DNA of 64,000 nt, taken from NCBI GenBank assembly GCA_965113315.1, contig OZ220364.1. One strand, 5' to 3'. Position numbers and translations under genes: made by a program. The DNA comes from Podarcis vaucheri (Eukaryota). Below are positions 29,779-53,188 of the stretch, piece by piece; within the stretch, counting starts at the first letter, position 1; each line of letters opens with the position of its first letter. The notes beneath the pieces were generated by a model. The model had not been told where the DNA came from. It saw nothing but the letters and a program-made list of their open reading frames with translations, and did not search any database.

Positions 29779-29898
29779 TTACTTAAGGAAGTTGTCTAGT
29801 TTAGTCTGACTGATGCCAGAAGTGGCTGCTGTTGGTTGCTTAGAAACACTTCTTTTCTTGCACCTCAAAGCTAGGGGGCGAATCTCTGTTGATATACT
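29779..29898 (-). CDS. TRAIP: TRAIP coding exon 15 (last), PCNA-interacting PIP box and stop
   Basis: SISTEIRPLALRCKKRSVSKQPTAATSGISQTKLDNFLK-TAA; QxxLxxFL PIP box as in human QAKLDTFL. Confidence 0.94.
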   Translation of the reverse strand, partial: SISTEIRPLALRCKKRSVSKQPTAATSGISQTKLDNFLK

Positions 29899-31001
29899 CT
29901 GAAATGAGACACGTCAAGGAAAATAGTGGCCAAATATTTAAAAGAAAGGTTTTACATTCCCATACATATCTGACATGTATAAATCATATCTGGGGGCTAA
30001 ATTATTTTCTCTCCCCCTGAGTCCCTCCTTCAGGGTCATTTTCCCCCCAACCTCCCAAGTAAGAGAAGAGAGGTCAGGTTTTAGCTGATCATGGAGTCAA
30101 ACATTTTTTATTCCCATCACCCAGTCAAAGGCTGACCAAGAGATGGTAGCAGACAGATACCTCTCCTAATAGTGTTTTACTGCTACATAAGCTTCAAAAC
30201 AATAACCATCACAGCTCATTATAAAGAAACAGGCTCTTGATGACAAATATTGGATTACTGACCTCTTAACTCTGCACAAGGGGAGGTAAAGGAACATTAA
30301 CCTGAATGTGAACACAGATATGCTAGAAACACCAATGATATCTAGAAACACTCATGGTATCCTCTGAAAAATGTAGCATTTGCTGCAAATGTGTCTTGAA
30401 ATACTCTACCAGCTGCAAAAACTGGAACCCCCCCAACTTATATAGGTTTTCCAGTTTTCAGGGAACGAAAGTGTATATATATACCTAATTTAAACACTGC
30501 ATTTCTTTGATCTCTACAGCAGATGTAAACTCAGCCTGATAGATTCACAAGTGGGATTTGAACAAGATCCTGATCCAGGTTTCCTAGGGCCACTTTTTCC
30601 CCAGTACCGTCATACTTTGGAAGTTGAATGGAATCTGTTCCGGAAGTCCATTTAACTGCCAAAGCATTTGACTTCCAAAGCACGGCTTCTAATTGGCTGC
30701 AGGAACTAGGCTGTTTGAAAACCAAGGTACAACTGTAAATATAGAACACTGTAGCCAAGAACTCATACAATGTATATTCTGATTGATTCTAGAGAGATAT
30801 ATTCCCCAAATATATTCCATTATTTCGGCTTCTCCTCACTTTGAATTTAAGCCAGAACGTCACTGTTCCAACTGGAACATTGCTTGATGGCTTAGTAAAT
30901 GCCACTGCTTCTTCTTAGTCTTTTGTGTCATTGATCATCATAGATTCAGTGCCGCTGGATATCAGCATAGCTTCTGCAGGACAGATCTTAGGAAAGGATA
31001 C
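29899..31001 (-). other. TRAIP: U12-type (minor spliceosome) GT-AG intron, last intron of TRAIP
   Basis: 5' splice site GTATCCTTT; branch sequence TTTCCTTGAC at 29922-29913 about 15 nt from the AG; no long polypyrimidine tract. Confidence 0.92.
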
Positions 31002-31052
31002 AGGCTGAATGAATTTGGTTCTGCCTCCTAAGCCATCATACCCAGTTCTCAC
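31002..31052 (-). CDS. TRAIP: TRAIP coding exon 14
   Basis: VRTGYDGLGGRTKFIQP (conserved GxDGLGGR motif); 51 nt; followed by U12-type donor GTATCCTTT. Confidence 0.96.
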
Positions 31053-31388
31053 CTACAAGGAAGAGAATCCAGTAGTTAAAAATGCAAAAGCATATGACTC
31101 CCATGGAGGAAGTTGTTATGAAATAGAAAAAGGATTGTAGTGGGTAAAAGGGCACATAACACACTAGAGGATTTGTGATCAGAGTATGCTAAGTATGTGC
31201 TGCCTGATCGGGTGTCTAAGCAGGTCCACTAGCAATAAAAAGAACAGAGCATATTGAATTTGTAAGATTTGTAGATGAGGACATGAGAAGGCATGTCCAG
31301 GAACAGGGTTCAGCTGGCTGCTGGTTGGCAGTTTAAGCAGGAACACTCCACACTGCAAAACTCTGATGCACATCCCACTTGTACTCAC

Positions 31389-31547
31389 CATTCCTGCGTT
31401 CCTCTGTGGTACAAGCATGTTGCTTGCAGGTGGCCTCTTGGACATAACAGAGTTTCTAATGAAAGCAGGCAGAAGATCTTCCAGATGCTCATCATCTGTG
31501 TCAGCTGAGCAGCTCTGAACCATATTTGAAGAAGTAGGAGAGTTAAA
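31389..31547 (-). CDS. TRAIP: TRAIP coding exon 13 (acceptor either 31547 or 31514, both in frame)
   Basis: FNSPTSSNMVQ/SCSADTDDEHLEDLLPAFIRNSVMSKRPPASNMLVPQRNAGM; conserved QSC and PxFIRN motifs; donor ATG|GTGAGT at 31388. Confidence 0.82.
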
Positions 31548-31967
31548 CTAAAATACTCATATTTGCAACCAAACACAAGCAGCACTACTAGAATCCATGT
31601 AATCCATCTACAGTATTGTGCGAAAGGAAATGGTCGTTTCTGCAAAAGCAGATTTTTTAAACATTCTTAGAGAGGAATGGAAGTTTGAAAGTCACTGGGC
31701 TCTGGTGCCAGCTGATAGATCAACAGATGACAACAGTACGGACCCCCTGCCCCAGATAATTCAGAATACATAGCAGTGGGAAGCTGACTCTCGCACACCT
31801 CTCAGGGCTAACTGTAATATTTACTATTTTATATAACACAGAAAAATGTATTACTTTAAAATCCATGCAGAATTTGGCTGTCTGGAGAAAAGATGGCTTT
31901 CAAAATAGCTCTAAAGATAGTGGATTGAAGAGGTTATAGTTGCTACTCAGGTTATCCGTTACAATAC

Positions 31968-32013
31968 CTCCACTGTTTCTTTCAGAACTCTTGATAAACT
32001 TGTCACAGGTGCA
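31968..32013 (-). CDS. TRAIP: TRAIP coding exon 12
   Basis: (F)APVTSLSRVLKETVE; 46 nt; ttttccAG / GTATTG; phase links exon 11 to 13; sequence poorly conserved. Confidence 0.75.
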
Positions 32014-32417
32014 CTGGAAAAAACAAACAAACCCACACACAATTTAGATTACACATCACAAAGTAGTAAATTGCTCAATATATCCCTTTAGAGTTGGAGG
32101 CACCAGTTTGAATTCAAACATGAATTTTCACAATGTGGCCCAGATCATAAGCCAACACCTAAAACAGGCTTTGCCAACCTGGTACCCTATGGACTATGAC
32201 TCCCAGCAGCTGTCAGCAGTGGACATACTACAAAAGTATAGGCTTCTTATGTCTCAATTAAAATAATAAAATGCAACTATAATGTTGTCTTCTCCTCCCT
32301 TCTCTCTGTTCTGACCACTAAGATAAAAGCCTCTGGTTTGATCAACAGGCAAATGTGGCAGATTTTTCATTACTTTTGCCTCGCTGCCATTGTTATCATT
32401 TCGCCGAAGCCCTAACC

Positions 32418-32757
32418 CAGCGATGGGGAACCTTTTTCAGCCAGACGGCCATATGCTTTCTAAGGGCCACCATGCCAGTAGTGGGTGGGGCCAGAGGCAA
32501 AAGTGGGCAAAGTAACAAATGTAATTATTAACCTTTGTACACTACACTAGTTTGTGTATATCCTTCTTTTATCTTTCATCCAGACAAAAGCAAGAGGCAT
32601 TATCAGAGTTCAAGGGCACATTCCAGCCAGGCAGAATCGCACAAGGAGGATGTGAAGCAGGTCTGGTGAGGGTGTGTGGCTGAGGAGAGTCCCGAGGGCC
32701 AGACAGAGAGGCTTGGAGAGCCACATTTGGCCCCTGCACCTGAGGTTCCCACCCCTA
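32418..32757. mobile_element. Older hAT (Charlie-like) MITE; similar remnant at about 42646-43040
   Basis: CAGCGATGGGGAACCT / AGGTTCCCACCCCT termini, GGCCA subterminal motifs. Confidence 0.65.
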
Positions 32758-33100
32758 GCCTACCCCAAAGTCTTTATACAAGTAGGAAAGCCATTCTTCA
32801 TTATCTCTAGGATTCAACGGGAGCCGAGATAAAGCACTTGTTAGAAGTAACAAATGAAGGGTGCCTATTTAAGAAATCGACAAAGTAAAGTTTCCTCTTC
32901 CTGAAACGGTTCTGTCTGTCTTAGATTGCAAGCATGCAGGTTAGGAATTACCCTGTTAGAGACTTTTTAATGAGATATTTGAGATAGATAATGGACAATA
33001 AGATAGGCAACTTTGGGGGCAAAGTCTCACTTTACTCTCACAACAGGTAAGATATGTTGTGACAGTCTTCTGCAGTGAACAAAAGCTTTAAAATGAGATA

Positions 33101-33407
33101 CAGTGGTGCCTCGCAAGACGAAAAGAATCCATTCCGTGATTCTCTTCGTCTAGCAGTTTTTTCGTCTTACGAAGCAAGCCCATTGACGGATTAGAGGATT
33201 AGCACTATTAGCGGCTTATCAGCTTATCGGATCAGCTGATAAGCAGCTTAGCGGCTTAGAAAAAAGGGGGGGGAGGAAAAACCCCCCGCAGGAACTCGCA
33301 AGCAAGCCCATAGGAGATTCGTTTTGCGAAGCACCTCCAAAACGGAAAACTCTTTCGTCTAGCGAGTTTTCCGTCTTGCGAGGCATTCGTCTTGCGGGGC
33401 ACCACTG
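33101..33407. mobile_element. Tc1/mariner MITE family B
   Basis: TIR CAGTGGTGCCTCGCAAGACG / CGTCTTGCGGGGCACCACTG; TA TSD. Confidence 0.9.
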
Positions 33408-33630
33408 TATTTCCATCAAAAGCAATGAGAACAAAATGTGGTCTTTGTTGTACAATTTGTTATTTCTTCAGCTTGTAAACCACCTTCTGTATAGTAATAT
33501 AGAAAGGCAGTACAAATTAAAAGTATTAAGATGGCTGGAAAATTGCTTACAGTGCATGCAGAAGTGAGAATACCAGACAGATCAAGAGCACAACATACAC
33601 CCAGTAAAAAGGGAAGCAACTGTGACTCAC

Positions 33631-33816
33631 AACTTTTTATCCAGTTTAAGTTTTTTTGCAGGAGCAGAGATGCTCTTGTGAGGTGGATGCTTTGGTGTCT
33701 GTACATCAAAGGTATCATTCTTTGGTGTCTGTACATCAAAAGTATCATTCAGGTCAATCTCATCACTGTGAGCTGGTCGATGGAGCTTTGGGGTTAACAA
33801 TTCTAGAGGAGCAGGG
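33631..33816 (-). CDS. TRAIP: TRAIP coding exon 11 (contains 30-bp tandem duplication)
   Basis: (S)PAPLELLTPKLHRPAHSDEIDLNDTFDVQTPKNDTFDVQTPKHPPHKSISAPAKKLKLDKK; 186 nt; AG/GTGAGT. Confidence 0.93.
33691..33750. repeat. 30-bp x2 coding tandem duplication in TRAIP exon 11
   Basis: TTTGGTGTCTGTACATCAAA(G/A)GTATCATTC twice, one mismatch. Confidence 0.97.
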
Positions 33817-34140
33817 CTGTAAGGCAAAATTGTACAAATATCACAACACAACATTACACTGTCAGACAGGTAACCGTCTCAGTTTCCAGCCCACACCACA
33901 TGCTGTACCATCTAAATACTAGCTTCCTATTAGTACTCATTCCTGATGGTGGAAGGCAATGACTATATAATACGGATACAGTAGAACTAAATTCAGAGAG
34001 AGAACTTTCTTCTGCTTTCTAGCAACATGTGCAAAGTGTTCAAAATTACCAAAATGACTGCCAGGTTGCCTGGGGTCTTCACATCCCATTCATGCTAGTG
34101 TACTGTAAAACTGGCCTTAAACAAGAAGCCCTACATTTAT

Positions 34141-34927
34141 TGTCAGGGCTGCCTCAGGTCTCAGCTCACAAAAGACCAACGCCAAGCTCTTCTTATATAC
34201 AAGGATGTTTATTGCAGTTCATTATTGGTTCCACAACCGAGGCGTGCAGCCCCGCGTCTCTTTCCCCTAGACATTAGAAGTCCCCTCTGAATCGGTCCCT
34301 CCCATACACCAGTTTAATAAGCTAACGCTGCTCCACCTTTTTCTCTCTTTCCTTTTCCGCAGGATCTTTCTGCCCGTCGGGGTTCCTCCCCTCCTGCTTT
34401 CTCCTGAAGCGGAGTCTCCAGACTGCTCCTGCCCCCTCCTGCGGGCTTTGGGTCCTCGCCCCTCCTCCTCCGGGCTCCCTGTTCTCCCGCGCGCCTCCTC
34501 ATTTGAACTTGGCGCGCGCGCCCAACTTCTGACCTTCCTTTTGACAGTTATGCTACTCTCCTCACTGCCTTCCTCCCCTTCCGGGAGAACGGCTTGCTCT
34601 GATCCCTCCCCTTTCTCTGTCGCCGGAGCTGCTCCCTCTGACACACTGGAACCTCCCCCTCCCTCGCTGCGCTCTGGTGGGGAGGCTGGCCCTGATTCCC
34701 AGCTGCCGCTTTGGGGTCCCCTGCTGGCCCCCCGCTCCTGACACTTTCCACCCGGGGCTCCCCTTGCCCTTACCACAGGCGCCCCTTTCTGGGAATCCTC
34801 TGATTCGCTGGAGAGACTCATGGAATCCCCTGCGTCATTCCTATCCTCTTCCTCGCTCTCCTGGGATTCCTCTCCATCGCTCTCCATTTCCTGCCTTCCC
34901 TGTGCATCTGTCCCTGTACCCCTGACA
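34141..34927 (-). mobile_element. Solo LTR (787 bp, probably Gypsy-like) in TRAIP intron 10
   Basis: TGTCAGGG...CCCTGACA inverted termini (TG..CA); perfect 5-bp TSD TTTAT; AATAAA on minus at 34213-34208; long open frame 34926-34267. Confidence 0.85.
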
Positions 34928-34962
34928 TTTATATAGGAAGGTTAGGTTACTGTTTGATATAA

Positions 34963-35755
34963 TCATCTTCTTTCTTCTTTGGTGATCACTCGTAGCCAAG
35001 TAAGATTGTCTTCCATAAACACGGTTTTAACAGTGAGTCCGTAAATGACTGTGGAGGCCAGTTCTGGATCCACACGTCCTTCCACAGTGGGGACATTGGT
35101 TTCCGGGCAGGAGTTGATCACGGTGTGGATTTGCCAAGCATGCCTTCCTCTTAGCATGTTTCTCCCTTGTGTCCTGAGTTCAAGTGTCTTCAAAACCCAT
35201 AACACCTTTGGTAAAGGCTGTTCTCCAACTGGAGTGCTCGCAGGCCAGTTTTTCCCAGTTGTCAGTGTTTATACTACATTTTTAAAGATTTGCCTTGAGA
35301 CAGTCTTTAAACCTCTATCGTTGACCACCAGCATTACGCTTTCCTTTTTAAGTTTGGAATAGAGTAGTTGCTTTGGAAGACGATCATCAGGCATCCGCAC
35401 AACATGACCAGTCCAACGAAGTTGATGTTGAAGAATCATTGCTTCAACAATGGTGATCTTTGCTTTTTCCAATACACTGATATTAGTTCACCTGTCTTCC
35501 CAAGTGATGTGTAAAAATTTTCGGAGACACCGTTGATGGAATCTTTCGAGGAGTTGGAGATGTCATTTATAAGTGGTCCATGTTTCACAAGCATATAGTA
35601 AGGTTGGTAGTACAATAGCTTTGTAAACAAGCATTTTGGTTTCCCTGCAAATGTCCTGGTCCTCAAACACTCTGCACACTTCAATCAGGAGAAAGCTGCA
35701 CTCGCAGAGCTCAGGCGATGCTGGATTTTGGCATCAGTGTTGGCCCTTGTGAAAA
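34963..35755 (-). mobile_element. RTE-clade LINE 3' fragment
   Basis: QLRWTGHVVRMPDDRLPKQLLY motif, C-terminal CPHCGRTCGSRTGLHSHLRTH zinc finger, GAA-repeat tail. Confidence 0.88.
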
Positions 35756-36072
35756 GTTTGAAATAATAGTGGCAGAAGAAACACTTGCACTAGTGTTATA
35801 CTGAGCTGGTATGGATGGTGATGTAGCAAATGACGAAATACTGAAGTCTAATGAAAAGGGTCAGGTAGCAGGTGGTGGGAAAGACCCTAGAGAACCACTC
35901 CCAGTCACAGTAGGCAGTACTGGGCTAGTTGGACAAATAGCCTGACTATATGTAAGGCATCTTATGATGTGCTTTTGGACAGCTCAGGAAGGTGTGAAAT
36001 GCTTATATTGGACAAAATCTTTGGTACAGTAACTCTGCTACATCAATATCCACTGAATTTTTCTAAACCAAC

Positions 36073-36161
36073 CTTTCAGAGACAAGCCGGCCAAGTGCTT
36101 CATTGCTTAATGATGACACTTTAATGGTATCTTGCATCACTCTTATCTTCTTTTTCAAACT
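36073..36161 (-). CDS. TRAIP: TRAIP coding exon 10
   Basis: SLKKKIRVMQDTIKVSSLSNEALGRLVSE+AG; 89 nt; AG/GTTGGT. Confidence 0.92.
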
Positions 36162-36376
36162 CTGTGGAAAGAAAGAGCAGCAATTAATACATGTCAGAAA
36201 TCCTACCAAAAGCCAATATTTCTACATCCCCTCTTGCAAAGATACAGGCATCTTGAAGTTGAGGGTGCCTCCCAGCCATTTTTAATCAGGGTGGAATTTA
36301 GAACAGTATTTGGACTATACACTACGAAGGCTGTAGGGCCACATTAATTATCAGCAAGTTAAAAGAATGTTCTCAC

Positions 36377-36466
36377 CATTATCTCATTATCTGCATTTCT
36401 CAGATCAGTCTGGGTGCTCTTCACCTCTTCTGTCGTTTTCTCCAACTCTAGAACTGTCTTCTGTAG
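36377..36466 (-). CDS. TRAIP: TRAIP coding exon 9 (leucine zipper region)
   Basis: LQKTVLELEKTTEEVKSTQTDLRNADNEIM; 90 nt; AG/GTGAGA. Confidence 0.92.
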
Positions 36467-36731
36467 CTATAGATTTAAAAAAGTATGTTGGAAGTCTAGT
36501 ACATGATGGGATACAGCAGTACACCAAGCTTCTAAGTGCTCAAAAAACCTACAGTAGTTTATGTTTTACAAATGCACGTTCTTAGACTTCAGGATAAAAT
36601 AATTTAGTGTATTGTAAATAAAGATGTCCTAAATGGAAACAGATTCTTATTCTTTCAAGGCTCCTGCAGAGGGAGCTCCAATGTGGCTCATCTCTTCAGG
36701 TGTCAATGAGAAGCTGCTGAGGGCAGCGGTA

Positions 36732-36957
36732 CAGTGGTACCTCGGGTTACATACGCTTCAGGTTACGGACTCTGCTAACCCAGAAATAGTGCCTCGGGTT
36801 AAGAACTTTGCTTCAGGATGAGAACAGAAATCGTGCTCCGGTGGCGCGGCAGCAGCAGGAGGCCCCATTAGCTAAAGTGGTACCTCAGGTTAAGGACAGT
36901 TTCAGGTTAAGAACGGACCTCCGGAACGAATTAAATACTTAACCCGAGGTACCACTG
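36732..36957. mobile_element. Tc1/mariner MITE family A
   Basis: TIRs and TA TSD; CpGs intact. Confidence 0.93.
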
Positions 36958-37501
36958 TACTAGTTTGCTCAAAGTAATTCAGTGTGCTTGTAAGTAGGCA
37001 TTTATAATAAAGGTACAATAAACTCTTGCCATTCCCAGTATATTCTCAAGAGAGAAACCCTCTCCCACCCTTCCTCCCTACACCTGTGTTTACAGTACAA
37101 ACTAAGACCCTTCCTGATATTAATCCAGAGGGATTTTCAAGAGACAGTTGTGCATTTTGACTTTAAAACTATAAACTGTCCTCGTGCAGTTATATATGTA
37201 TAACACAATGCTTTATTAGAAGTTTTTTTCAATTCTTGTTATGCAGAAACAGAAAGAATACTGAGGCAGACTAATAAATGTTATGCAGACATACTGAGGA
37301 ATCTTAGGGAACCTACAGCTGAACTTCTCAGCTTAAGATAGCTGCCAACATGGTCAATGTAAGTGCTTGGACAAGAATTGTGTTAAACAAATACATACCT
37401 AATTAAAATGTATTTTGCTTTATTTCGGTAGTGGTACTGATGAAGAGCTGCACATAAATACCTCTGCAACGTGTCTGCAGGAGCATCAACACATCTTTTA
37501 C

Positions 37502-37589
37502 CTTGTGATTAGCAGAAAACAACTCCTTTCTCAGCTTCTCTTTTGTATCGTTTGATGCTTTCTGAGACTCCTTCAGATTTTCATACTCC
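37502..37589 (-). CDS. TRAIP: TRAIP coding exon 8
   Basis: EYENLKESQKASNDTKEKLRKELFSANHK; 88 nt; AG/GTAAAA. Confidence 0.94.
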
Positions 37590-38570
37590 CTGGAGAGGGC
37601 CCAAATTAGTCCATCTGTTGAACATGCTTTCAAGCAAACGGCTCATAGATAAAGCCAGTAACCAAATTTAGACTGAAGATTTTCATTTCACAGCTTAAGT
37701 GCCTGCAGAAGTTTCTGTTATATATACAAGAACTTCCAGGGAGAAGACAGCACTGAACAAGCCAACACTGACTTGAACAGTGTTAAAACACCGATACACT
37801 ACAGCGTAGGCGAGAAAACATGCTTTCAGGGGAACAGCACTACTTGGTTTGGGCCGGGACAAGCAGCAGAATGGCAGAAGAGAATATTCCATGTCAAAAT
37901 GCATAGGATGTTTAAACAATCTTCAGTCGTGTACGGTATTTTACATTCTCATTAATGAAATGAGATGCAGCAATTCAATTTTTATTTTTAAGTTCAAGGT
38001 TCTAAAAGCAATTTAATACTATTATAAAACAGTGCTGAAGTTACTGATTACAATGCAGGTACACTTCACGCTGGTAGCTCATTATTAAAAGTTGTGATTA
38101 CCCATTTGCTATCTGACATTGCCTGCACAAGCTGTGAATTATAAACGGTATAAATAAAAAGGCCTCTAGTGCACACAGTAGGGACTGGCGACTACAGCAT
38201 ACTTAATGTCACAGCAGTGCAAAGCACTCTGCTCAGCACCAGGGAGATATTCAGGGGCCATGCTGCCTTACTCAGAATCATGACAATAATTCATCCCCTC
38301 CGTTCTCATCAAACAATCACCTCCTGAGCACTCTGGCAAAGCTCTGAAGGTGGTTTCCATAGCAATGGATGTGTCACTAATGCAACAATAGCATACTTGC
38401 AGTGTTGAAATCTTCCATCTATGCCACCTCAATTATATTCACCAAGGCTTAGCATTGCAACTAGCGTTCTGCCAGAGCACCTATTGTGATTAACTTTTCC
38501 ACCGATTCCTTTAGGGGGTACCACACAAACCCAATCCAAGTCAATAAGCTACTGCATTTAATACACCTAC

Positions 38571-38684
38571 TTTTTCAGTGAGATACAATAGACGGCAAGC
38601 TGTTCCACTGCGGCCTGACCTGTTCCCATTTCACGGATCATCTTTTCTACCTCGGGACGTTGACTTTGCAGCAGTGTCTCAATC
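38571..38684 (-). CDS. TRAIP: TRAIP coding exon 7
   Basis: IETLLQSQRPEVEKMIREMGTGQAAVEQLAVYCISLK; 114 nt; AG/GTAGGT. Confidence 0.95.
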
Positions 38685-38969
38685 CTGGTACGAAGGAAGG
38701 TAGATTACAGGTGGGTTGTTGCTTTTTGTTCAGTGGCAGGTTGTCCATGTTATAAAAACACAGAAACAGTTAATCCTGGAAGAGACACATCCTGCATTTC
38801 ACACTAGCAATGATTTCCCCCCAACATAGCTGGATTCATATGAACACTAGTGTGCTTCAGTTGAATGGGAATTATACTGATGCATTCCCCCCCCCCCAAT
38901 GATCTTACTGTATTTTATGTAAACCACTTGGTGATTTCACATATTAGATGGTATGTAAATATTATAAAT

Positions 38970-39323
38970 GGGACGCGGGTGGCGCTGTAGGTTAAACCAC
39001 AGAGCCTGGGACTTGCTGATCAGAAGGTCAGTGGTTTGAATCCCCACAACAGGGTGAGCTCCCGTTGCTCGGTCCCTGCTCCTGCCAACCTAGCAGTTCG
39101 AAAGCACATCAAAGTGCAAGTAGATAAATAGGTACCGCTCCGGCGGGAAGGTAAACAGCGTTTCCGTGTGCTGCTCTGGTTTGCCAGAAGCGGCTTAGTC
39201 ATGCTGGCCACATGACTCAGAAGCTGTACGCCGCCTCCCTTGGCCAGTAAAGCGATATGAGCGCCGCAACCCCGGAGTCGGTCACGACTGGACCTAATGG
39301 TCAGAGGTCCCTTTACTTTACCT
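38970..39323 (+). mobile_element. Full-length Sauria SINE
   Basis: GGGACGCGGGTGGCGCTG head, ACCTTT-type tail, perfect 14-bp TSD TAAATATTATAAAT. Confidence 0.95.
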
Positions 39324-39468
39324 TAAATATTATAAATAACAAGTTACCAGTATTAAATTTCCTCTAGCAAACAAACTCAGAAACATGGCCATTTGTAAGA
39401 AAGTTGAGCATCAATTATTATCAGACAAGCACATGATAAAGGGGCAAGGCTCATGTTGGAAACACTTA

Positions 39469-40155
39469 CCGTATTTACTCGAATGTAATGGGCCATTGAA
39501 TTTAATTTTTGTGATGTAATTTGGCAAAGAAAGGTGCACATTACATTCCTTCTTCCATCTGATCCCTCTTCCCTTCTCTCTGATTAGCTGGTGCAAGGCA
39601 GAGCGGAACCTTTGACCCTCAAGGGTGTCCGGAATGGAAAGGAGAGGCGGATACAGGTGGAAGGAAGGAAGGAAAAAGAGGAAGGACGGAACACAGAAGG
39701 AGAGTAGCCGTGATCTGGGCTGGAGAGCGAGAAAAAGTAAGAGGGAGAGATGAAGGAGTTGAGAAGGAGGAGCAGAGCAGAGCAGTAAGGACTGCCACTG
39801 GGTTCAGGGAGCAGAAGACCAGGAAACAGGGTGGCCAAGGCTCTACACACACGCAGGCTGCCAGCTCCTCCTTACTGCTGCTGCTTACTTCACTCCCCCC
39901 CCTCCTGCCACCTTAAGCCAAAAAGGAAGGGAGAGTATCCCCTGACAAATCACTGCAAATCTTTTGCCCTCCCCAGAAAGATTAAATTCGAGAGGAAGGC
40001 TGGGTCACGGGAGACCTAAGACACTGCATGCTAGTGTGCCCTGAAATCCTAAGAACTGTATTTTCTCGAATGTAATGTGCACTCGAATCTAATGCACACC
40101 CTAATTTTTGCAACATATTTGGCAAAACAGGTGTGCATTACAGGAGTAAATACAA
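39469..40155. mobile_element. Tc2/pogo-like non-autonomous element with about 480-bp unrelated internal segment
   Basis: TA-CCGTATTTACTCGA start and GAGTAAATAC..TA end; ends match the 180-bp element at 62924-63103. Confidence 0.7.
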
Positions 40156-40308
40156 TAAGTGTTTCTACTGCAAAGTTACAGACTCAGAGTTGGAAGAGGC
40201 CTCAAAGGTCATCTGGTCCAATGTTGTCTTCTAGAAATGTGAGGTTGCTGAGCAGTCTGCTAACAGAACCAGAAGATGTATGTATAGAGCCAAAGCTTGT
40301 TTTCTCAC

Positions 40309-40403
40309 CCCTCCAATGTTTTCAGTCTGTTTCTCAGCCTTCGGGCCTCCTCTTTTGCACTCTTCGCATCATCTTGCTGTTGCTCCAGATACTTCATTTG
40401 TTT
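40309..40403 (-). CDS. TRAIP: TRAIP coding exon 6 (coiled coil)
   Basis: KQMKYLEQQQDDAKSAKEEARRLRNRLKTLE+2 nt; 95 nt; AG/GTGAGA. Confidence 0.95.
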
Positions 40404-43400
40404 CTGAGAAAAAAAAGCACTATTTTTGTTTAAGAGGAATCCCCATGGAAGCAAAATTTGGACTTAACATCAAGCCATTTCCAAAGCTCTTGCTACTTCA
40501 ATAGCCCACAGTCTACATTTCAGGTGTCTGGCATATCCATGGATCATAACTTATCTAATAATAATATTTACAGATTGAGGTCATTGCTTACAAATGAGAG
40601 AAGTACTTAATTCCAGGAAAAAAATATTCCCCCTTAAATACTTCTTGTTTCCACTCTTGCAATGAATTTTTTTTTTTAAGTGCCACATGAATGCTTCATG
40701 GCAACTTGTTCATGATCTGTAGAAAACTGTATCATGCATGCGGTCTAATTTAAGTGCAACATGGTAGGAACAAACTTGTACAATATCATGATTTCTCTTT
40801 TGTGAGCAGGAAAATATCTCACAAATTCCTTCCTTTCATTTTACTCTGCTCTCATGAGACCACCACCAAAAGTCTACCCCACTTTAACCATCATCATATT
40901 GTAACAGCTTCTATACTTATATTAAAATGAACAGCTTCCTTGAATATAGAGTGACCTGTGCAGGATCAATGCAGTGTGCGTTTAGGGAGCTTCCTCAGCA
41001 GATTTAAAGAAAATAAACCTCCTTCAATACACTTGTGATTTCTAGGCTTTGATTGGGTTGGTCAGCTTAGCACAAACTTCAAAGGATCCTTACTACTTTC
41101 CCTCTGAACTGAAAGCTAGGGAAGAAGCAATGCTGTTTGATCCTACTTCAGAGAAAAGAATGGCCAAAGACTAGAATATCTATACAAGATGATATTAAGC
41201 TTTACTCCATACAGAAGGTGAAATATTCTAGATGTATTTGCCAACTTACTACTTCCCTACCTCATGTACTTACAGAAATGAATGCCTAAAATGCTGGCTG
41301 GCTGATGAGAGCTCACTCAGTCTTTGTTAATCCCCAGTTTTTACAACTCTTCCCAACGCTTCCATTTTAACTTTTTAACTCCTCAGCAGCATCTAGCTGG
41401 TAATGCTAATGCATTTAATGGCCAGAACAGGAAGGGCACAGCGGATTTAGCTTCTGCTGTTGCTAGAGAGGCTTTCTCCAGCACAGCCAAGAAGGAAAAG
41501 CAAAGCTCACCCATTTGGCACTTGCCGCACATTGATAGCATGCTTGGAGACAGCTTCGGTTGGAATTCTGTTTTTCAGAATTGGGAAGAAATTCTAAGCT
41601 CTAGACAGAAAATGCATACAAAGTTTGAAAGCTGTCTCCAAATCTGGGGTGGGGTGCAGTTGCCTCAGATTACATAATTAATAGGCTTAGAGCAGCTGCA
41701 GGGTCTGCATGATTAGAAAAAGCACCGAATAAAGTACACTTCACTGAAACATCAACTGTCCTGGGAGAAGTCAGAATATGGAAGAGCAATGAAAAGATAG
41801 CATGAATGATTTGTGTATCTCAGCTTCCTTCTGATCATGTCACATTAAAAGTGCAGCCTAAAATGCGACATCTGTTGAGCACCAAGAGAAACAACCCTTT
41901 TCTGCTTGCCAACTCATGAAACTGCATTCATATCAACAGAGATCTAAAAGGCAGAAACAAGTCGTTATAACCCATCTAACTCACATCATTTCCAGAAACG
42001 CATCTTGACATGGAAGTTCTCACTTAAAATGTCTTCCACTATCACACAGCCAAACTGTGTTTTCAGCTTAGCCTCTTTTCTCAAGGCATAATATTTGAGA
42101 AAATATTATCTGAAGGCATAATATTTGACCCATGGACCTATGGTATCATAGGACATCATATCAGGAATTATGGTAAAAATCAATTTACTTGGGCATTATT
42201 TTTGGATGGGATGGAAGAGGATGTGGCTAGTAGTCTAAAACCAAATCAACAAACATTTGTCTTCAGCAGATGCCAAGGTCGTATTCCTTAAAAAAAAAAT
42301 ATGATTTTTTTTGGGCATAAAATACCATTAAAATCAGCCTAGTCTGCAGAACAAGAATAAAAAACCAAGATATAGAAAAGAAGAGAAAAGAGAGGGAATA
42401 ACTATAAGGTTCTTTATTCCATCTATATCCTATCATTTATCCACACACACAGAGGTGGACCCTCCCAGATCCCACTTGGTTGTATTCCTAAGCAATGCGG
42501 GAGGAGATATTCATTCTCAAAACAGACCAGACTCACTACAGCTACTTTTACATGCTAGTGCAGAACACTGGTGACGTACATACTTTCTTCCCATTTCAAC
42601 CCCTTGATAAGCACGAATGTCACTTTTTTATAGGGACAGTTTAGCACAGGGTAGAGAAATGCATTTGGCCGGAAGGCCAGTTTCTGATCCCCTACCGCCT
42701 CTAGGCCCGTTTGACGTCAGGCTATGAAACTCTTTGATGCCCTGACAATGGGCTCTTTGCAAGAGGCTTGTAAGGAGTACAGTGCTGTGCTTTGAAGTCC
42801 CAATGATCTGTTGACTGTTGGCACTTCAGAAGCACTGCATGTGGGGCTTCTGATTTATAGTGCTTCTGAAGCACTATAAATCCCGATTGTTGGGACTTGT
42901 GCCCAGAGTTTCTAAAGCATTTCAGAAGTCCTTATGGCCCAGCTGTCTAGTTACTTGATCACATCTAACATCATACATGACATCAGTTGATTGGGCCAAG
43001 CCAGCCTCACCTGCCAAGCATCCTGTTTTCCCAAACCTGAGCGAACACCAAACCAGCAAAATCAAGAAAGTGTTACATCCTGCATTTGGGCTTTTTAAAG
43101 ATAAAAGCAAAGGGAAGCAAATGTCAAAACCTTAGATTTGGAATCATCCGGTATTCCATGATGGAAGTCTCACCTGCCTGGTTTATACTTGCTTCATCTT
43201 TTGTCTCCCCTGCTAAGTCTAAAAGGACTTTTTACCTTAGGATGCTGGATGTTGTACATTAAAACTTTCAAGTCATACCATGAGATGTATTTAAGATACA
43301 GTACAATCACATCCTATGTGGCGGCTCATTTCCAAGGGTTCAATGTATACATGGAAGCACGTATACTCAAACTGCCTCCATGCAAGCCAGTGCACTGAGC

Positions 43401-43702
43401 ACACATTGGGCCCCCCAACCAAGGCAGAGAGCTTAAAAACTCTTTCTGCACTGGGAAAACCTGGCATAAAAGGAGGTTGTAAGCGCTTCACCTTACTTGG
43501 ATTTAAGTCTCACAGTTCCAATCAGCTCACCTTCAACTGTGTATGGTTGAAATCAGGAAGATTAAATGATTTTACAGTACGATGGCATCTTATACGCAAA
43601 CACACAGTCTCACACTACTTCTTCTTTTTACCTTCAGATATATGGTAACCAGAAGAGAATCTTATCATATTACAGCACAGACCCAGACCATTTTGAACAT
43701 AC

Positions 43703-43830
43703 CTTGAGAGTAGCACACAACATTGTCATCTGAGTCACAGATTTCTGGAGTGATTCAATGGTGGCATTACGCAAATCCAGGGTCTCCCTTAGTGAATTCA
43801 CAATATTTTGGATATCCCGTTTCTCCTTCT
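43703..43830 (-). CDS. TRAIP: TRAIP coding exon 5 (coiled coil)
   Basis: EKEKRDIQNIVNSLRETLDLRNATIESLQKSVTQMTMLCATLK; 128 nt; AG/GTATGT. Confidence 0.95.
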
Positions 43831-43963
43831 CTGAAACAAAAACACACACACACATAATTACAGTGCTTTAAACAAATCTCCCCAAGTTCTTTAGGTCTTT
43901 GGACTTGGGGCAGGAACGTGACGAACGACAAGCAAAGCAAGGGGAACTTTCAAAGGCATAAAA

Positions 43964-44102
43964 CAGGGCTGGCTAAACTGTGGCCCTCCAGTTGCTGTTA
44001 GGGCTCCAACTATTATCAGCTCCAGCCACTGTGGCCAATGATCATGAATGACAGGAGCTGTAGTCCAGCAACTTCTGGAGGGATCCAATTTAGCCACCCT
44101 TG
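43964..44102. mobile_element. Short palindromic hAT MITE
   Basis: CAGGGCTGGCTAAA / TTTAGCCACCCTTG termini; CCCTCCAG / CTGGAGGG arms. Confidence 0.7.
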
Positions 44103-45626
44103 GTCTAGAAATTGCTTGGAACTATTGGATGGCCATTACTGAATCTGTTCTGCGAGAACCATGTGCCACTTCAAATAATCCTTGTTACAAGCTCCACTAA
44201 GCTTCAAGGTTTCTTTAGAACAAGAGTAAAAGCGTGCTCTCTTCAGAACCTGTTCAGTTGGCAATGCCAATATGGTAGCCATCAGCTCCCACCCTCCCAA
44301 GCATCAAAACAAGCTCCGGTACAATTAAGTACTGTGCAGGGAGTCAGCATTATTCATAAACATAACATTTACAAAACCATGAAATTTTGATGTCTGACTT
44401 TAAAAGACTCTGTATTCTGTTTTTGGTGTGAACCCTTGTGTGCTGGGTACATGCTTAGGCAAGATTTCAGCTGTTCCTGTGAATAGTGAGACAACGATGA
44501 CACACAGAACAATTATGTTACTGTATTGTTACATTCCTATTCTAACTTATTTACTTTCACCACACTTTGCGCCCTGAGCAAGAAATTTAAATGTAACGTA
44601 CTTCGTTTAATTCCTGGAACAAAACACATTGTCCCAGTTTGTGCATCTGCAAAAGTTACAGGACCATCAAGACTTCATAAAAGACACATTTATATTAGAG
44701 ATATGGCAGGCCTGCAAAACTGATTAGGCAGATAATCACCTTTAATTCCCCTCCAAAGAGCACCTAAAGTGTGTCAAAGCTTCAATGTGTTTCTTAACCA
44801 AGCAAGGTACAGTGCTACAAGCCACCCTCAGGTTCAATATAGCAGTTGCTCCTGTCTCAGTATGCAAGCTATGAGGGAAGTTGTTCATCTCAGGGAGAGA
44901 TGTAGCTTATTTTTGGCTCCTTAATTTGTAATTGTCGAGGAAGGCAAACAGTCCAATGGGAAAAGACAGCTCATTAGAAACAGAAGAACCCTCCCTTGGT
45001 TGCTCATTTAAAATCTCTTCATTTTACTGCATTCTCATGTTTTGGAATTTCTGTCATTCATTTTGAGTGACATTTTCCCTTCACTGCCTATGACTCACAG
45101 CTGCCTACAGACAATGCTTTAAAAGCCATCAACAAAGTCTCCAAGGCTTTCACTTAACTGTCTCCATAAAGCATTTCTAAAATTAAAGTTACAATGCTCT
45201 TTAAAGCAATGGGGAAATGGAATCACATGAGCAACCAGACACATGGACCATCATTCAGATAGCTGGCAAAATCCTCTCCCCTCCTCCGTTTCCTACTTCT
45301 ATTTGGTTTCTCAATTATATGCAACACCTCTGCAATTTTTCACTACAAAACCACTGACATTAGGCAGGTACAAGTTTCGTAACAAGGAGGCATTTACCTT
45401 AAGTTTATCTGAATAGTCTCACTTAAGTTTTTCACCAAGCTCAGCTGTGTCATGCCAAATCCCTGTGGCTGAGCAGAGTCTTTAAACTCTGGTCAACAAG
45501 TGACCCAAAGCATTTCATGTATATATGTGTTTGGAGTGGAGTGAGTGGGAAGTATCTTAACTCTTCAGTTTTAAACACAGCTTTAAGTCATCATGCAAGG
45601 CTTGTTAATACTTAAAAAATAAAATA

Positions 45627-45990
45627 AAAGGGTAAAGGACCCCTGACAGTTAAGTCCAGTCGCGGACGACGCTGGGGTTGCAGCGCTCATCTCGCTTTTC
45701 TGGCTGAGGGAGCTGATGTTTGTCTGCAAACAGTTTTTCCGGGTCATGTGGCCATCATGACGAAGCCGTTACTGGCGAAACCAGAGCAGTGCATAGAAAC
45801 ACCGTTTACCTTCCCGCGGGAGCGGTACCTATTTATCTACTTGCACTTTGACGTGCTTTTGAACTGCTAGGTTGGCAGGAGCTGGGACAGAGCAATGGGA
45901 GCTCACCCCGTCGCGCGGATTCGAACCGCCGACCTTCTGACCGGCAAGCCCTAGGCTCTGTGGTTTAGACCACAGCGCCAACCGTATCTC
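45627..45990 (-). mobile_element. Sauria SINE
   Basis: Same body as the 9953 and 38970 copies, reverse orientation. Confidence 0.92.
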
Positions 45991-46079
45991 AGTAGTCTTC
46001 AGTAAAGTTAATACTTTACTGGGACACATAAATACTTTACTAAAGGGCAAACCTCTTCCTCTTCTATTTTTCAACTCAC

Positions 46080-46119
46080 CTTTCATGGCTAACTGGGCTT
46101 TCATCCTATCCAGTTCATT
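46080..46119 (-). CDS. TRAIP: TRAIP coding exon 4
   Basis: NELDRMKAQLAMK+1 nt; 40 nt; AG/GTGAGT. Confidence 0.93.
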
Positions 46120-47221
46120 CTGAAATATAACACATAAAAAAACAAATTAGGTGGCAGCACAACATACAAGCCCATATCAGAGCTTTAAAAGGTGTGTCAG
46201 AGTGATTTTAGGATATCTACCCAAACACTATTCACACTCACACGGACCAAGTTATGCAGAAAATAGTCACAACTGTCGAAGCTTTATTAATAACCTATAT
46301 CCTAGGATTATTTTAGAAGTGGGCAGAGGGCTGGAGCTCAGAACTGAAAAAAACATCAAGAGCGATTGTCTCACCACTTGCCGCCCTATTTCTCACACTG
46401 TCATTTTGCTTTTGTCAAACAGCTTTAGAAATCTCAAATGGGAAAAACAACAACGAAGAAGTATTTCAACACTATTTTAACTTAACAAGCCAGCCAAGCA
46501 CAGATCCTGCCAGAAAGAATTTGAGCCCCAAATATTTTTAACTAATATTTGTAATCAATGGATAATTAGCTGGAGTGCAATAGTGTTACAAAACTAGTGT
46601 TTGGAGAGAGTCCAACAAGCAATTTATGAATGCATCTCGATAGAGGCACAATGAGTCAAACCAAACGCTTGTTTAATGCTCATTCAAATGAGCTTGGAAA
46701 TTGACAGCGACACAGAACAGCAGCTGGATGAAAGGGCAGCAATGAACTGGCTGGCACCAAGTAGGTTGAGGAGGTGCCAAATGAACACCCAAAGGAGCTA
46801 TGCAACAGCTGGCAGTATTTAATACTGAAAAAATAAAATACATGGCATGTAGCCAGAATTTACAGTACTTAATGATGCCAACATGTGTTGGGAAGTTTTC
46901 CTTTTGCACATGAGTCTGGCAAACTGCTCTGAGCTGAAAACATTCCTTCCTAGAATGTTCAGTTCACATTGAGTTCATGGAACATTGTACCCTGACCTGT
47001 TCTTAATGCATGGTAGACCACATCTACGGAATGCGATGGTTATGTTCTTTTAAGTCTTACTATATCAATCACTAGTTATAATGATTAATGATATAGTATA
47101 ATGATTGCTATATCAATCATTAGTAATTGTTTAAGGAGGTTTTCACGCCTGTCCAATTCTGTGTTCCCTTCCCCAACCTTTAATCTATTGATGATTAATG
47201 CCTATATGCAACCCTATATGC

Positions 47222-47563
47222 CAGTGTTTTTCAACCTTTTTTGGGCAAAGGCACACTTGTTTCATGAAAAAAATCACGAGGCACACCACCACTGTGTGCG
47301 GAGAGGGAGATGTCAGAGCCCTGCTGCTCTCTATGGGGAATCGGATGAGAGCGGACTGCCTGTCCGCTCTCATCCAATCTGATCCCCACCCAGGATGGAT
47401 GGAAAATAGGGTGGACACAGTCCAGCGCCCGTCTAGTGGGCAAAAATTTGACTTTTTTTTTTTTAAAAAAAAAGCTTTCGAATTTTTCAATTTTTCCCAC
47501 GGCACACCAGGCAACATCTCGCGGCACAATAGTGTGCCGCGGAACAGTGGTTGAAAAACACTG
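47222..47563. mobile_element. Non-autonomous hAT element, sister of 12352-12854
   Basis: TIR CAGTGTTTTTCAACC / GGTTGAAAAACACTG; 8-bp TSD CTATATGC; shared GGCACAC subterminal blocks. Confidence 0.92.
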
Positions 47564-48423
47564 CTATATGCAACCCTTGCATTGTATTTGTGTTAACCAA
47601 TCAGCAACAAGCACATATGTGGTAATGCTGTAATATTCAATAAAAGGGACTCCCCGACACATGCTCGGGGGATGCCTCCCATATTACACTTGCCATTCGT
47701 CTGTCGTTTATTTCAACCCAACAAACATGGATCTACTTCATGCTCATATTTCTACTTTAAAAAGAAAAAGGAAAAGCTGATTTATCAGGTGGGGGTGGGG
47801 GTGGAATCTGATGAGAGTCTGCAAACCCTAGAAAGCATAAAGGCTGAATTAGGCCTGCAGGACATAGCAGACAATAAGCTGGGCATTGAGTAAAATGTAG
47901 TATGACAGCACCCTCACCCCCCACCAAACACAGCATGTTGCTGAAACTATTCATGCAAAGACATCATGTCTATATTAATTTAAGAAAATAATTAATTAAA
48001 TAAGGTCACCAAACTAACAGCATGTCATTCATGGTGCACTGCAGTATATTGTATGGATTATTAGAATCTCATGGCAAATATGTTGTTGAAATAAAATGGT
48101 TAGGAAACTAAATAAATAAATCAGAAGGCATTGAAACACAAGCTGACAACATAATACGGAGTGAAATATGATTGTACACACACAGCTTGTATGGGCAGGG
48201 TAGAAGCCAAAGTATCCCTCTTCCCTTATTTGACAGCAATACCAGCAATATGTACACTAAGGCTTCCTTTCTCTTCCATTGAAGTAAAGAAGAGATGTGT
48301 TTTATAGGAATCTCAATGATGCAGCTCAGTAGACTGCCTGGAGGTTGATAAGGGAAGCTTAGGGCAGAGATGAAGAGGGCTTATGCCTGCCCTCCATTTG
48401 TATGGAGCTATATTAAAATGGGA

Positions 48424-48697
48424 GGGACGCAGGTGGTGCCGTGTGTTAAACCACAGAGCTAGGGCTTTCCGATCAGAAGGTCGGCGGTTCGAATCCCCGT
48501 GACGGGGTGAGCTCCTGTTGCTCGGTTCCTGCTCCTGCCAACCTAGCAGTTCGAAAGCACGAAGTGCAAGGCTTAGTCATGCTGGCCACATGACCCGGAA
48601 GCTGTACAGCGGCTCCCTCGGCCAATAAAGCGAGATGAGCACCGCAACCCCAGAGTTGGCCACGACTGGACCTAATAGTCAGGGGTCCCTTTCCCTT
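48424..48697 (+). mobile_element. Sauria SINE with about 70-bp internal deletion
   Basis: Head and tail intact; 15-bp TSD TATAT(T/C)AAAATGGGA; junction GTGCAAG|GCTTAGTC. Confidence 0.92.
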
Positions 48698-50953
48698 TAT
48701 ATCAAAATGGGACGAGAGGAAGGGCTGATCCTAGAATAAAACACGTAGGAGAAAGTGTTGGCAAGTTTGATGTGACAGAAGAAAGGGAATGAGGTCTCTA
48801 CCAAGTCAACTGGGATCCAGAAAGTGCAACAAAAGAGGCAGCCCAGGGTTCATTTCACGTTTGGGAAGCATATCAGGGAAAGGAAATCAGCTATGTGGAA
48901 TTATGAGGAAACCTGGTGCGAATGCTAAGTTTGGAAGAAAGGAAGCAGTGAAAGTAGAAGGAGCCTTTATGGTGGTACCCCAGCCCATAACTAATTTAGA
49001 ATGTGGATCATTTTTATTTAAGGGAAACTGGACAACGCATGGGCTATTTGTACATATATTAATGGTTAAAAAATTTATGCCAGTGACAAGTTGGGGGGGC
49101 AATGAGAGACTTGGGGCACCTTAAAGGGTCGCAAATAAGTGGACTTTAGCCCACAAAAAACTTATACCATACTAAATTTGTCAGTCTAAGGTGTCACAAT
49201 AGACCAATTGCTGCAACAGACCAACACATCTACCCCTCTAAATATTGGAGCAAGATAGTTGACCCCCCTCAATTCCATGGACTTGTAGCATCCACAATAC
49301 AAAACTAACATTAGTGCTATATATGCTAATAACTATTAGCAGCTGCCAACTTATAGCCAAGAATGTTCTTGTTATAACAGGAAGCAAACCAAGAGATGGT
49401 GTTTCTCTTTATTGCTATGCCATCCTACTCTGGAAAAAAATGTGGTTTTCAGTATTTTGCAGCTCAAGAGTAACACCTGGCAAACCACTGCTGCTTCATT
49501 CAAGTGAACTAATGCTTTCTATGGCTCTCTAGGTGTGCTAGCATAAGTATTCACTTTGCCGATTGGCTGAACTGTTACTTAAGGTACTCAAGATATGTTG
49601 TTGCTATGACAGGAACACATTTAATTCTCAGTCATCCTTATCTGTAATAACTTTCCTTTGTTGAATAGTGCACCTACTGAATAATATGCTTAAAGAAATC
49701 CTAGTAAATATAAAGAGAGCTTTTATGTGCATCAAGTTATTTTTGAATCTATGCAACTACCTTGTTTATTGACCACATTTATCAGGTTGCTTTTAGTCTC
49801 TTTTCTGTGAATATGACAGCTTTATTTCTGATGGAACTGTTACCTATATCAGGGAATTAGGCACACAGACACAAAACTTGTCGTCATGGAAATTCTAATT
49901 ATGACAACCATAGCACATGCTAACTTTAAACACAAGAGGGTAGAAGAGTCCTATTATATCAAGGTCAATGGAGACTTTTTAAATGACTAAGATACAGAGG
50001 AAATAGCATTTTGCCAAGGATAAATTATTGTTGAGAGTACACAGCGCTTTAGCACCATGATTTTGCATTCAGGATTTCTCATTGCCAGCACAGTAGTGAT
50101 CTCAAACACGTTAAGGCTGCAATCCCACAGACATTCACCTTAGAGTAGGTTCCATTGGTTCTAACCTAATTGGGTTTATTTCAAAGTAAACACATACAGG
50201 ATTGCACTATAATTGATGTACCTTCCCAGATGAAGCTTGTCTTAAATATTTATTCGTAACACAGTATGTATCATAAGATTATAGCCTATGTTTTTCCAAG
50301 TCTTGTAACATTATTATATATCCTACACCCATACACACTGTGCAATCTAATTTTTGTATTATTTTTTAAATGTCTCTTTCTCTTATTGTGGATCAAAAGA
50401 TCTCACAGAGCAAGCTAACTGATAACACTGAGGAACAGTAAAAATGTAACTATGTGCCTAGTTGTTAGATGAAGACTATAAACAGACCGTATTCTTTTAA
50501 CAGCTTCCACCCAATGAGCATTGCAAAGACTGCAAACTATCCTCTCTTCGCTTGTTCCTACAGGCAACTAGAACAACATTCCATTCAGCCTCCAGACTTT
50601 AACATAGCTGTGTTACTCCTGATCTGCACAATATCCGAGGATAATAGGAAGAGGCTAACAAAAACAAACATAATTAAGAAGGCCATGCTCTTTGAAAGGA
50701 GTCTGAATGGCAGAAAATTGGAAGAAATTGATAGAATTCCTTTCATGTCAACTTGCTCTTAAAATGAAAGCATTTTTAAACCCGAAGATCTGAGGTCATG
50801 TAGAGTCTAACTGAGGTGGGCCTCCAGAAGCAGAAACAAGTGCAGAAGCAGATTCACCTTTGATCCTATGCCTAGCCAATGACAGGAAATATTTACAGGG
50901 AAGATTTTTTTTTTAAACATAGATGATGGGAGCAAGCTGTTGCACATACATAC

Positions 50954-51037
50954 CTGTAGACTTTCTGCATCCAGTCCTGTCTGTTCCTCCAGGGCAACAT
51001 CAAAGAACAGTTTGTTGATTATGTGTCTTTTGCCAAC
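50954..51037 (-). CDS. TRAIP: TRAIP coding exon 3
   Basis: VGKRHIINKLFFDVALEEQTGLDAESLQ; 84 nt; AG/GTATGT. Confidence 0.95.
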
Positions 51038-52772: not shown

Positions 52773-52797
52773 CAGAGAGAGAGAGAGAGAGAGAGAG
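52773..52797. repeat. (AG)n microsatellite
   Basis: Direct reading. Confidence 0.9.
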
Positions 52798-53123: not shown

Positions 53124-53188
53124 CTAGAGGGGAAGAGATGACAAAGTGATTGTTGACAAATGGTGCTTCTTAACATGAACCACACAGG

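What the first reader, a model, noticed from the sequence alone, without database searches (positions are those of the whole stretch)
33691..33750. In-frame duplication doubles TRAIP's conserved NxTFDxxTP phospho-motif
Seen: a 30-bp tandem duplication in exon 11 gives DLNDTFDVQTPK-NDTFDVQTPK-H (T325 and T335 in my numbering). The copies differ by one synonymous change (ACT/ACC), which argues against an assembly artefact. Known (recalled): human TRAIP has a single DLNATFDVDTP motif (T324), a conserved island in a disordered region; TP is a minimal CDK site and N-x-T-F fits the Plk1 consensus. I recall this threonine being reported as the mitotic CDK1 site used to engage TTF2 for replisome disassembly, but cannot verify that here. 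Inference: this lineage may carry two docking sites, changing avidity or threshold of mitotic TRAIP activation.
Basis: partly seen in the sequence, partly recalled or inferred. Interest (0 to 1): 0.7.

Follow-up and report, generated by a model that had tools for sequence, protein, structure and literature searches.

The report
Half-duplicated mitotic switch in lizard TRAIP
Wall lizards and the common lizard carry a real, inherited 10-amino-acid duplication of the site by which the replication enzyme TRAIP recruits its mitotic partner TTF2 in frogs and mammals, but the extra copy lacks the conserved front end of that site and is likely a tolerated spare rather than a second full docking site.

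Summary
The duplication is real: 30 nt, in frame, in TRAIP exon 11 of a Podarcis-type lizard, giving T325-P and T335-P with one synonymous difference. It is neither an artefact nor a rare allele. Runs of four further organism labels and three spliced RNA-like contigs carry both copies, as do named proteins of three Podarcis species and Zootoca. Lacerta agilis has one copy, probably by loss. T325 is the published CDK1 site bound by the TTF2 zinc fingers. But the predicted footprint (315-328) is longer than the repeat. Copy 2 has Thr-Pro-Lys where homologues have Ile/Val-x-Leu (Leu in 141 of 143), lies 40 rather than the conserved 30 residues from the priming site S295, and overlaps copy 1's footprint. 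Most likely (0.6) copy 1 remains the docking site and copy 2 is a tolerated, truncated spare. A weaker alternative site is possible (0.22); two TTF2 bound at once is unlikely (0.05). Selection on copy 2 could not be tested for lack of power, and no binding was tested. I found no report of it in the papers searched. It is a modest natural variant, useful for defining the minimal TTF2 motif.

The parts
29779..55733 (-). TRAIP coding region, 15 exons, 470 aa; 5-7 residues differ from three named Podarcis proteins, 13 from Zootoca
33631..33816 (-). TRAIP exon 11 (186 nt), spliced to exons 10 and 12 with both repeat copies
33750..33758 (-). I315-D316-L317: conserved front end of the motif, present once, in front of copy 1 only
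   Evidence: predicted footprint 315-328
33720..33749 (-). Copy 1, N318-K327; T325 codon 33728-33726; 30 residues after S295; full upstream context; likely the working TTF2 site
33690..33719 (-). Copy 2, N328-K337; T335 codon 33698-33696; preceded by T-P-K instead of I-D-L; keeps the ancestral downstream context (K-H-P-P-H-K)
36073..36161 (-). TRAIP exon 10; its last two bases and the first base of exon 11 encode S295, the priming CDK site

Best explanation
A 30-nt in-frame tandem duplication in TRAIP exon 11, shared by Podarcis and Zootoca, left one complete TTF2-docking motif (copy 1, T325) and one truncated copy (T335) that is likely a tolerated spare with little or no TTF2 binding of its own. 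Shown here: the duplication, its splicing, its spread, what was and was not copied. Taken from frog and mouse work: Cyclin B-CDK1 phosphorylates S295, which primes T325; the TTF2 zinc fingers bind pT325 and bridge TRAIP to POLE2 for mitotic CMG unloading. Inferred: the lizard uses copy 1 in this way; copy 2 may be phosphorylated (it is a T-P site) but docks weakly or not at all and cannot be occupied together with copy 1; the insertion arose by slippage or end-joining repair before or during the Lacertini radiation (crown 37.6 Ma, published range 15-47 Ma), was tolerated because it lies in the disordered tail downstream of the intact site, and was probably lost again in the Lacerta agilis line.
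For: (1) The predicted TTF2 footprint is TRAIP 315-328 (AlphaFold 3 model; ITC used peptide 313-329), 14 residues against a 10-residue repeat. (2) Among 143 distinct homologue segments (207 of 213 candidate proteins had the anchor), position -8 is Leu in 141 and never Lys, -10 is Ile/Val/Met in 142 and never Thr; copy 2 has Lys and Thr. Profile score over the footprint: copy 1 40.4 bits, copy 2 10.7; only a lamprey segment scores lower (4.0), the next lowest is 24.4, median 51.1. (3) S295-to-T spacing is exactly 30 in 117 of 121 representatives; copy 1 keeps 30, copy 2 lies at 40. [quoted passage not shown] (5) Lacertid TTF2 has one zinc-finger pair with K16, R20 and the likely POLE2-binding stretch unchanged between species with and without the duplication. 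(6) TRAIP is already a dimer, and losing the TTF2 link entirely has modest effects in human cells, so selection on a marginal gain would be weak. (7) Insertions are typically copies of adjacent sequence and are enriched in disordered regions (review passages); a gecko carries an independent 6-aa duplication of the same motif that adds no second T-P.
Against: Copy 2 keeps the whole core F-D-V-Q-T-P-K-H in all 15 duplication-bearing records and scores as well as copy 1 over -7..+3 (34.3 vs 31.5 bits). The one change in Zootoca copy 2 (D329A) moves it to the commonest homologue residue. The footprint is a prediction; no paper section I read tests I315 or L317. A lamprey TRAIP lacks the I-x-L front end, so it may not be strictly needed. 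Neutrality is not shown: 1 change in 10 residues between Podarcis and Zootoca against 36 of 386 in the TTF2 linker has no power either way. The clade of duplication bearers is not rejected (p-AU 0.069), so L. agilis may never have had the copy.
Confidence: 0.6

Rival explanations
1. Copy 2 is a working alternative site: TTF2 binds either pT325 or pT335 (one at a time), F321-D322-V323 standing in for I315-D316-L317 with a four-residue loop, which raises effective affinity or gives a back-up.
For: Core intact in three named Podarcis species and Zootoca; core profile score equal to copy 1; F-D-V resembles the hydrophobic-D-hydrophobic pattern of I-D-L (seen in the sequence); Zootoca D329A matches the consensus.
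Against: Lys at -8 and Thr at -10 occur in 0 of 143 homologue segments; spacing from S295 is 40; one copy in L. agilis; TTF2 shows no matching change.
Confidence: 0.22
2. Copy 2 is not a docking site but an extra CDK site that tunes cooperative phosphorylation of T325, standing in for the third CDK site (mouse S348) that this lineage lacks.
For: In mouse, loss of S295 plus S348 cuts T325 phosphorylation about five-fold; the Podarcis tail has no S/T-P at the S348-equivalent position (a marmot has S-P 23 residues after the threonine).
Against: Five of the six non-lacertid squamate proteins printed also lack that site (only Tiliqua has T-P there), and so does L. agilis, all with a single motif. 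The 10-residue spacing is below the 12-residue minimum for Cks1 priming given in a review of yeast work.
Confidence: 0.1
3. One reading: two TTF2 molecules dock on one TRAIP tail at once and raise avidity or shift the threshold of mitotic activation.
For: Two T-P cores are present and spliced.
Against: Predicted footprints 315-328 and 325-338 overlap by four residues, including pT325 itself; copy 2 is truncated; the dimer already offers two sites.
Confidence: 0.05
4. Assembly artefact or rare allele.
For: The copies are 29/30 identical. Contigs show presence, not absence, so single-copy alleles in a population are not excluded.
Against: Present in runs of organisms A, C, G, H and I (7 of the 8 runs laid; the eighth, X23, gave no cover of the exon) and in named proteins of four species.
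Confidence: 0.01

Closest known systems
Vertebrate TRAIP pT325 (human pT324) motif bound by the TTF2 tandem zinc fingers (10.1101/2024.11.30.626186; 10.1101/2024.12.01.626218; PMC12242765)
   Same: Same gene and position; copy 1 has the full conserved pattern and the 30-residue spacing from S295; TTF2 K16 and R20 are present in the own genome.
   Different: The core 10 residues are doubled. No other fetched TRAIP has two such cores. Copy 2 lacks the I-x-L front end. The third CDK site (S348/S352) is absent.
Multisite CDK substrates primed through Cks1, such as yeast Sic1 (review passage, PMC4124799)
   Same: Several S/T-P sites in a disordered tail (S295, T303, T325, T335).
   Different: T325-T335 spacing is 10, under the 12-residue minimum cited; no test of priming in lizard TRAIP.
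Short tandem-duplication insertions in disordered protein regions (review passages, PMC11385596); Euleptes europaea TRAIP
   Same: In-frame copy of adjacent sequence in a disordered tail; Euleptes has an independent 6-aa copy starting at the same motif.
   Different: Here the copy includes an experimentally essential phospho-threonine and has persisted across at least two genera.

Membership tests
TRAIP E3 ligase | N-terminal RING, coiled coil, disordered tail; orthology to named TRAIP | tested here: met
   15 exons match P. muralis TRAIP; 5-7 differences from named Podarcis TRAIP; RING matches in PDB. Coiled coil and disorder are taken, not computed.
TTF2-docking pT325 motif, copy 1 | T-P at the conserved position with F/Y(-4), V(-2), L(-8), I/V(-10), 30 residues after S295 | tested here: met
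   (40.4 bits, inside the homologue range)
TTF2-docking pT325 motif, copy 2 | Core F-x-V-x-T-P | tested here: met
TTF2-docking pT325 motif, copy 2 | Upstream L(-8) and I/V(-10) inside the predicted footprint | tested here: not met
   Lys and Thr; seen in 0 of 143 homologue segments
TTF2-docking pT325 motif, copy 2 | 30-residue spacing from the priming site S295 | tested here: not met
   40 residues; 30 in 117 of 121 representatives
TTF2-docking pT325 motif, either copy | Phosphorylated by Cyclin B-CDK1 and bound by TTF2 in a phospho-dependent way | not testable with these tools
   Needs biochemistry; shown for frog, mouse and human single-copy sites
TTF2-docking pT325 motif, copy 2 | Purifying selection on the copy | tested here: inconclusive
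   1 of 10 changed vs 0.93 expected at the TTF2-linker rate
TTF2 partner | Tandem zinc fingers with K16 and R20, adjacent conserved motif | tested here: met
   Five N-terminal exons in the own genome match P. muralis TTF2; that RNPFKV is the POLE2 motif is inferred from its position
Plk1 site (D/E/N-x-S/T-hydrophobic; consensus recalled, from no call) | Conserved acceptor and evidence of Plk1 phosphorylation | tested here: inconclusive
   -7 is D/N/E in 141 of 143, -5 is S/T in 129 of 143; no Plk1 role for this site in passages of three papers

The most novel reading that the evidence does not exclude
Lacertid lizards evolved a two-threonine TRAIP switch: pT335 is a second, alternative TTF2 docking site (F321-D-V323 replacing I-D-L, or pT325 adding charge in front of it), kept for 15-38 million years, which lowers the CDK1 threshold for mitotic replisome unloading; Lacerta agilis reverted, giving a natural gain-and-loss experiment on a newly described phospho-reader.
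Probability: 0.2. Interest if true: 0.55.

Novelty: new variant of a known kind. Interest (0 to 1): 0.3.

Why it matters
The TTF2 zinc fingers were only recently described as a phospho-binding module, and in the sections I read the bound motif is defined by a predicted model and one peptide. The lizard protein puts a complete and a front-truncated copy side by side, so it is a ready test of whether I315/L317 are needed. If copy 2 binds, it is a natural case of a cell-cycle switch retuned by motif duplication. If not, it is an ordinary tolerated insertion, already present without comment in public protein records.

Tried and rejected
RNA raw-read run X23 gave no cover of the exon (about 12 in 100 of the run read): no evidence either way; no holder was on record as RNA. 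PDB search: only RING-domain relatives, no TRAIP tail structure among 35 matches. Selection test on copy 2: no power. TRAIP and TTF2 trees do not resolve Podarcis, Zootoca and Lacerta. The first conservation counts used filters that required a hydrophobic residue at -8 and were partly circular; redid them by alignment without that filter and is the count relied on. The 50%-identity library search gave 147 new proteins: 5 with one full motif, 2 with an unrelated C-terminal match, 140 with none by my pattern, none with two. Paper searches for a report of this duplication found none: TRAIP+lizard+duplication 0 papers, TRAIP+Podarcis 0, TRAIP/T325/ortholog/reptile 4 listed, none on it by title and abstract start; searches also showed none by listing. 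Most subscription journals are not searched. Earlier scan notes: nothing. No other lacertid genome is held, so no Timon, Darevskia, Takydromus, Eremiadini or Gallotiinae sequence was examined by name.

Full report
OBSERVATION. The window holds a period-30 tandem repeat of two copies at 33690-33750. On the minus strand both copies read NDTFDVQTPK and differ by one synonymous base, ACT vs ACC. They lie in a 186-nt exon (33816-33631), the 11th of 15 coding exons of TRAIP; the threonines are T325 and T335. The exon is identical in protein to Podarcis muralis TRAIP. The whole protein differs from P. raffonei and P. lilfordi by 5 residues, from P. muralis by 7, from Zootoca vivipara by 13 and from Lacerta agilis by 37 including an 11-residue gap, so the window is from a Podarcis-type lacertid. 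The stretch has one match in the own genome.

IS IT REAL? Of 24 runs listed I laid 8. Contigs of X1, X3, X9 (organisms A, C, G) and X10 (organism H) span both copies with no gap or other letter listed there; X1 is identical over 701 bases and may be the source. Three RNA-like contigs of organism I from three studies cover the entire exon with 0, 1 and 1 other letters and no gaps, joined to exon 10 in 3 of 3 and to exon 12 in 2 of 3 at canonical ends; the one other letter (33747) is synonymous in N318. The raw RNA run X23 did not cover the exon. Contigs cannot exclude rare single-copy alleles.

DISTRIBUTION AND AGE. Of 142 proteins fetched first, 15 records carry two cores: P. muralis, P. raffonei, P. 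lilfordi and Zootoca (copy 2 NATFDVQTPK); 122 carry one, including L. agilis and the amphisbaenian Rhineura; 5 did not match the pattern. Of 61 further cluster members none has two (56 one, 3 no match, 2 short fragments), nor does any of 147 distant representatives. A phylogenomic study places Podarcis as sister to all other Lacertini, crown age 37.6 Ma, earlier estimates 15-47 Ma, with very short basal branches (PMC6733905, passages). On that tree the duplication predates the Lacertini crown and L. agilis lost it; incomplete lineage sorting is the alternative. My TRAIP tree joins Zootoca with L. agilis weakly (72/43; shared L35 and V406) and does not reject a clade of duplication bearers (p-AU 0.069).

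WHAT THE SITE DOES ELSEWHERE. In frog extracts Cyclin B-CDK1 phosphorylates S295 and T325, S295 primes T325, and both are needed for mitotic CMG unloading (10.1101/2024.11.30.626186, section 5). TTF2 K16 and R20 are predicted to hold the phosphate, and K16A or T325A removes the CDK-enhanced pull-down; human T324 behaves alike. In mouse, T325 is essential; AlphaFold 3 predicts that the zinc fingers bind residues 315-328, and ITC shows phospho-dependent binding of peptide 313-329 (10.1101/2024.12.01.626218, section 7). TRAIP is a dimer. Breaking the TTF2 link in HCT116 cells had modest effects. A third paper did not detect pT325 by mass spectrometry but regards it as likely (PMC12242765). Plk1 is not tied to this site in the passages searched.

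ANATOMY OF THE TWO COPIES. The repeat is 10 residues, the predicted footprint 14. Copy 1 reads I-D-L-N-D-T-F-D-V-Q-T-P-K-N over 315-328; copy 2 reads T-P-K-N-D-T-F-D-V-Q-T-P-K-H over 325-338. In an alignment of 143 distinct homologue segments (mostly birds and reptiles, with amphibians, mammals, fish and a lamprey; 207 of 213 candidate proteins had the anchor, duplication bearers left out), -8 is Leu in 141 and -10 is Ile/Val/Met in 142; Lys and Thr never occur there. Copy 1 scores 40.4 bits, copy 2 10.7; only the lamprey is lower (4.0), the next is 24.4. The scores of homologues are self-scored and the sample is bird-heavy. Over the core alone the copies score alike (31.5 and 34.3). The distance from S295 is exactly 30 in 117 of 121 representatives; copy 1 keeps it, copy 2 is at 40. 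The two footprints overlap at 325-328, so simultaneous binding is unlikely (inference). The 10-residue spacing is below the 12-residue Cks1 minimum cited in a review of yeast work (PMC4124799, passages). The partner shows no matching change: TTF2 in the own genome has one zinc-finger pair with K16 and R20, and Podarcis, Zootoca and L. agilis TTF2 are nearly identical there.

SELECTION. Between Podarcis and Zootoca copy 1 has 0 of 10 changes and copy 2 has 1 of 10; the TTF2 linker has 36 of 386, which predicts 0.93 per 10 residues. This cannot tell constraint from drift. The Zootoca change goes to the consensus residue. It may be a reversion, or the ancestral state with later homogenisation in Podarcis; both take the same number of steps (inference).

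MECHANISM. Most likely (0.6) copy 1 is the working CDK1-TTF2 switch and copy 2 a tolerated, front-truncated spare. Insertions are typically copies of adjacent sequence and favour disordered regions (PMC11385596, passages), and this one leaves the conserved site and its spacing untouched. The gecko Euleptes has an independent 6-residue duplication at the same motif without a second T-P. Rivals: an alternative, mutually exclusive site (0.22); an extra CDK site that tunes T325 (0.10); two TTF2 at once (0.05); artefact (0.01).

NOVELTY. The pathway and site are known and the duplicated sequence stands in public protein records. My searches found no paper on the duplication. What I saw of the papers: abstract plus sections 5, 7, 9, 10, 12 and passages of 10.1101/2024.11.30.626186; abstract plus sections 4, 7 and passages of 10.1101/2024.12.01.626218; abstract, section 32 and passages of PMC12242765; passages only of PMC6733905, PMC4124799 and PMC11385596. 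Figures and the preprints' supplements (alignments, AlphaFold tables, the measured dissociation constant) were not seen and bear on which residues contact TTF2. The Plk1 consensus is recalled.

VERDICT. Observation confirmed, interpretation partly supported; new variant of a known kind; interest 0.3.

Noticed in passing
P0066, P0161 (Gopherus flavomarginatus); P0073, P0151 (Gopherus evgoodei): Both gopher tortoise species have Ile in place of the T325 threonine (E-I-P) and Met at -10; other turtles fetched keep T-P. The site essential for TTF2 docking in frog and mouse appears lost in this genus; possibly more interesting than the duplication.
   Followed up: partly
P0002 (Euleptes europaea), residues 316-327: Independent 6-aa tandem duplication of the upstream half of the same motif; S295-to-T spacing becomes 36. 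In the window a TTGA word recurs 18 nt apart across this stretch, a possible slippage point.
   Followed up: partly
P0141 (Peucedramus taeniatus): 4-aa deletion inside the motif, spacing 26; single record, may be an error.
   Followed up: no
P0010 (Lacerta agilis), residues 290-345: Cluster of substitutions around the missing copy and the longest lacertid branch, 0.042 vs 0.011 for Zootoca.
   Followed up: partly
window 33631-33816 and exon 12 (32013-31968): The third conserved CDK site (mouse S348, Xenopus S352) reads A-P here and is missing in most squamates printed; lacertids have an extra T/S303-P.
   Followed up: partly
P0373 (Petromyzon marinus): Lamprey TRAIP keeps the T-P but not the I-x-L front end.
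   Followed up: no
window 33437-33525, 33068-33411 and 34090-35841: High-copy interspersed repeats in the introns flanking exon 11 (very high contig depth).
   Followed up: no
window 12444-12819 and 18509-19662: GC-rich stretches with short triplet-like repeats and several overlapping ORFs, resembling first exons or CpG islands of neighbouring genes; not identified.
   Followed up: no
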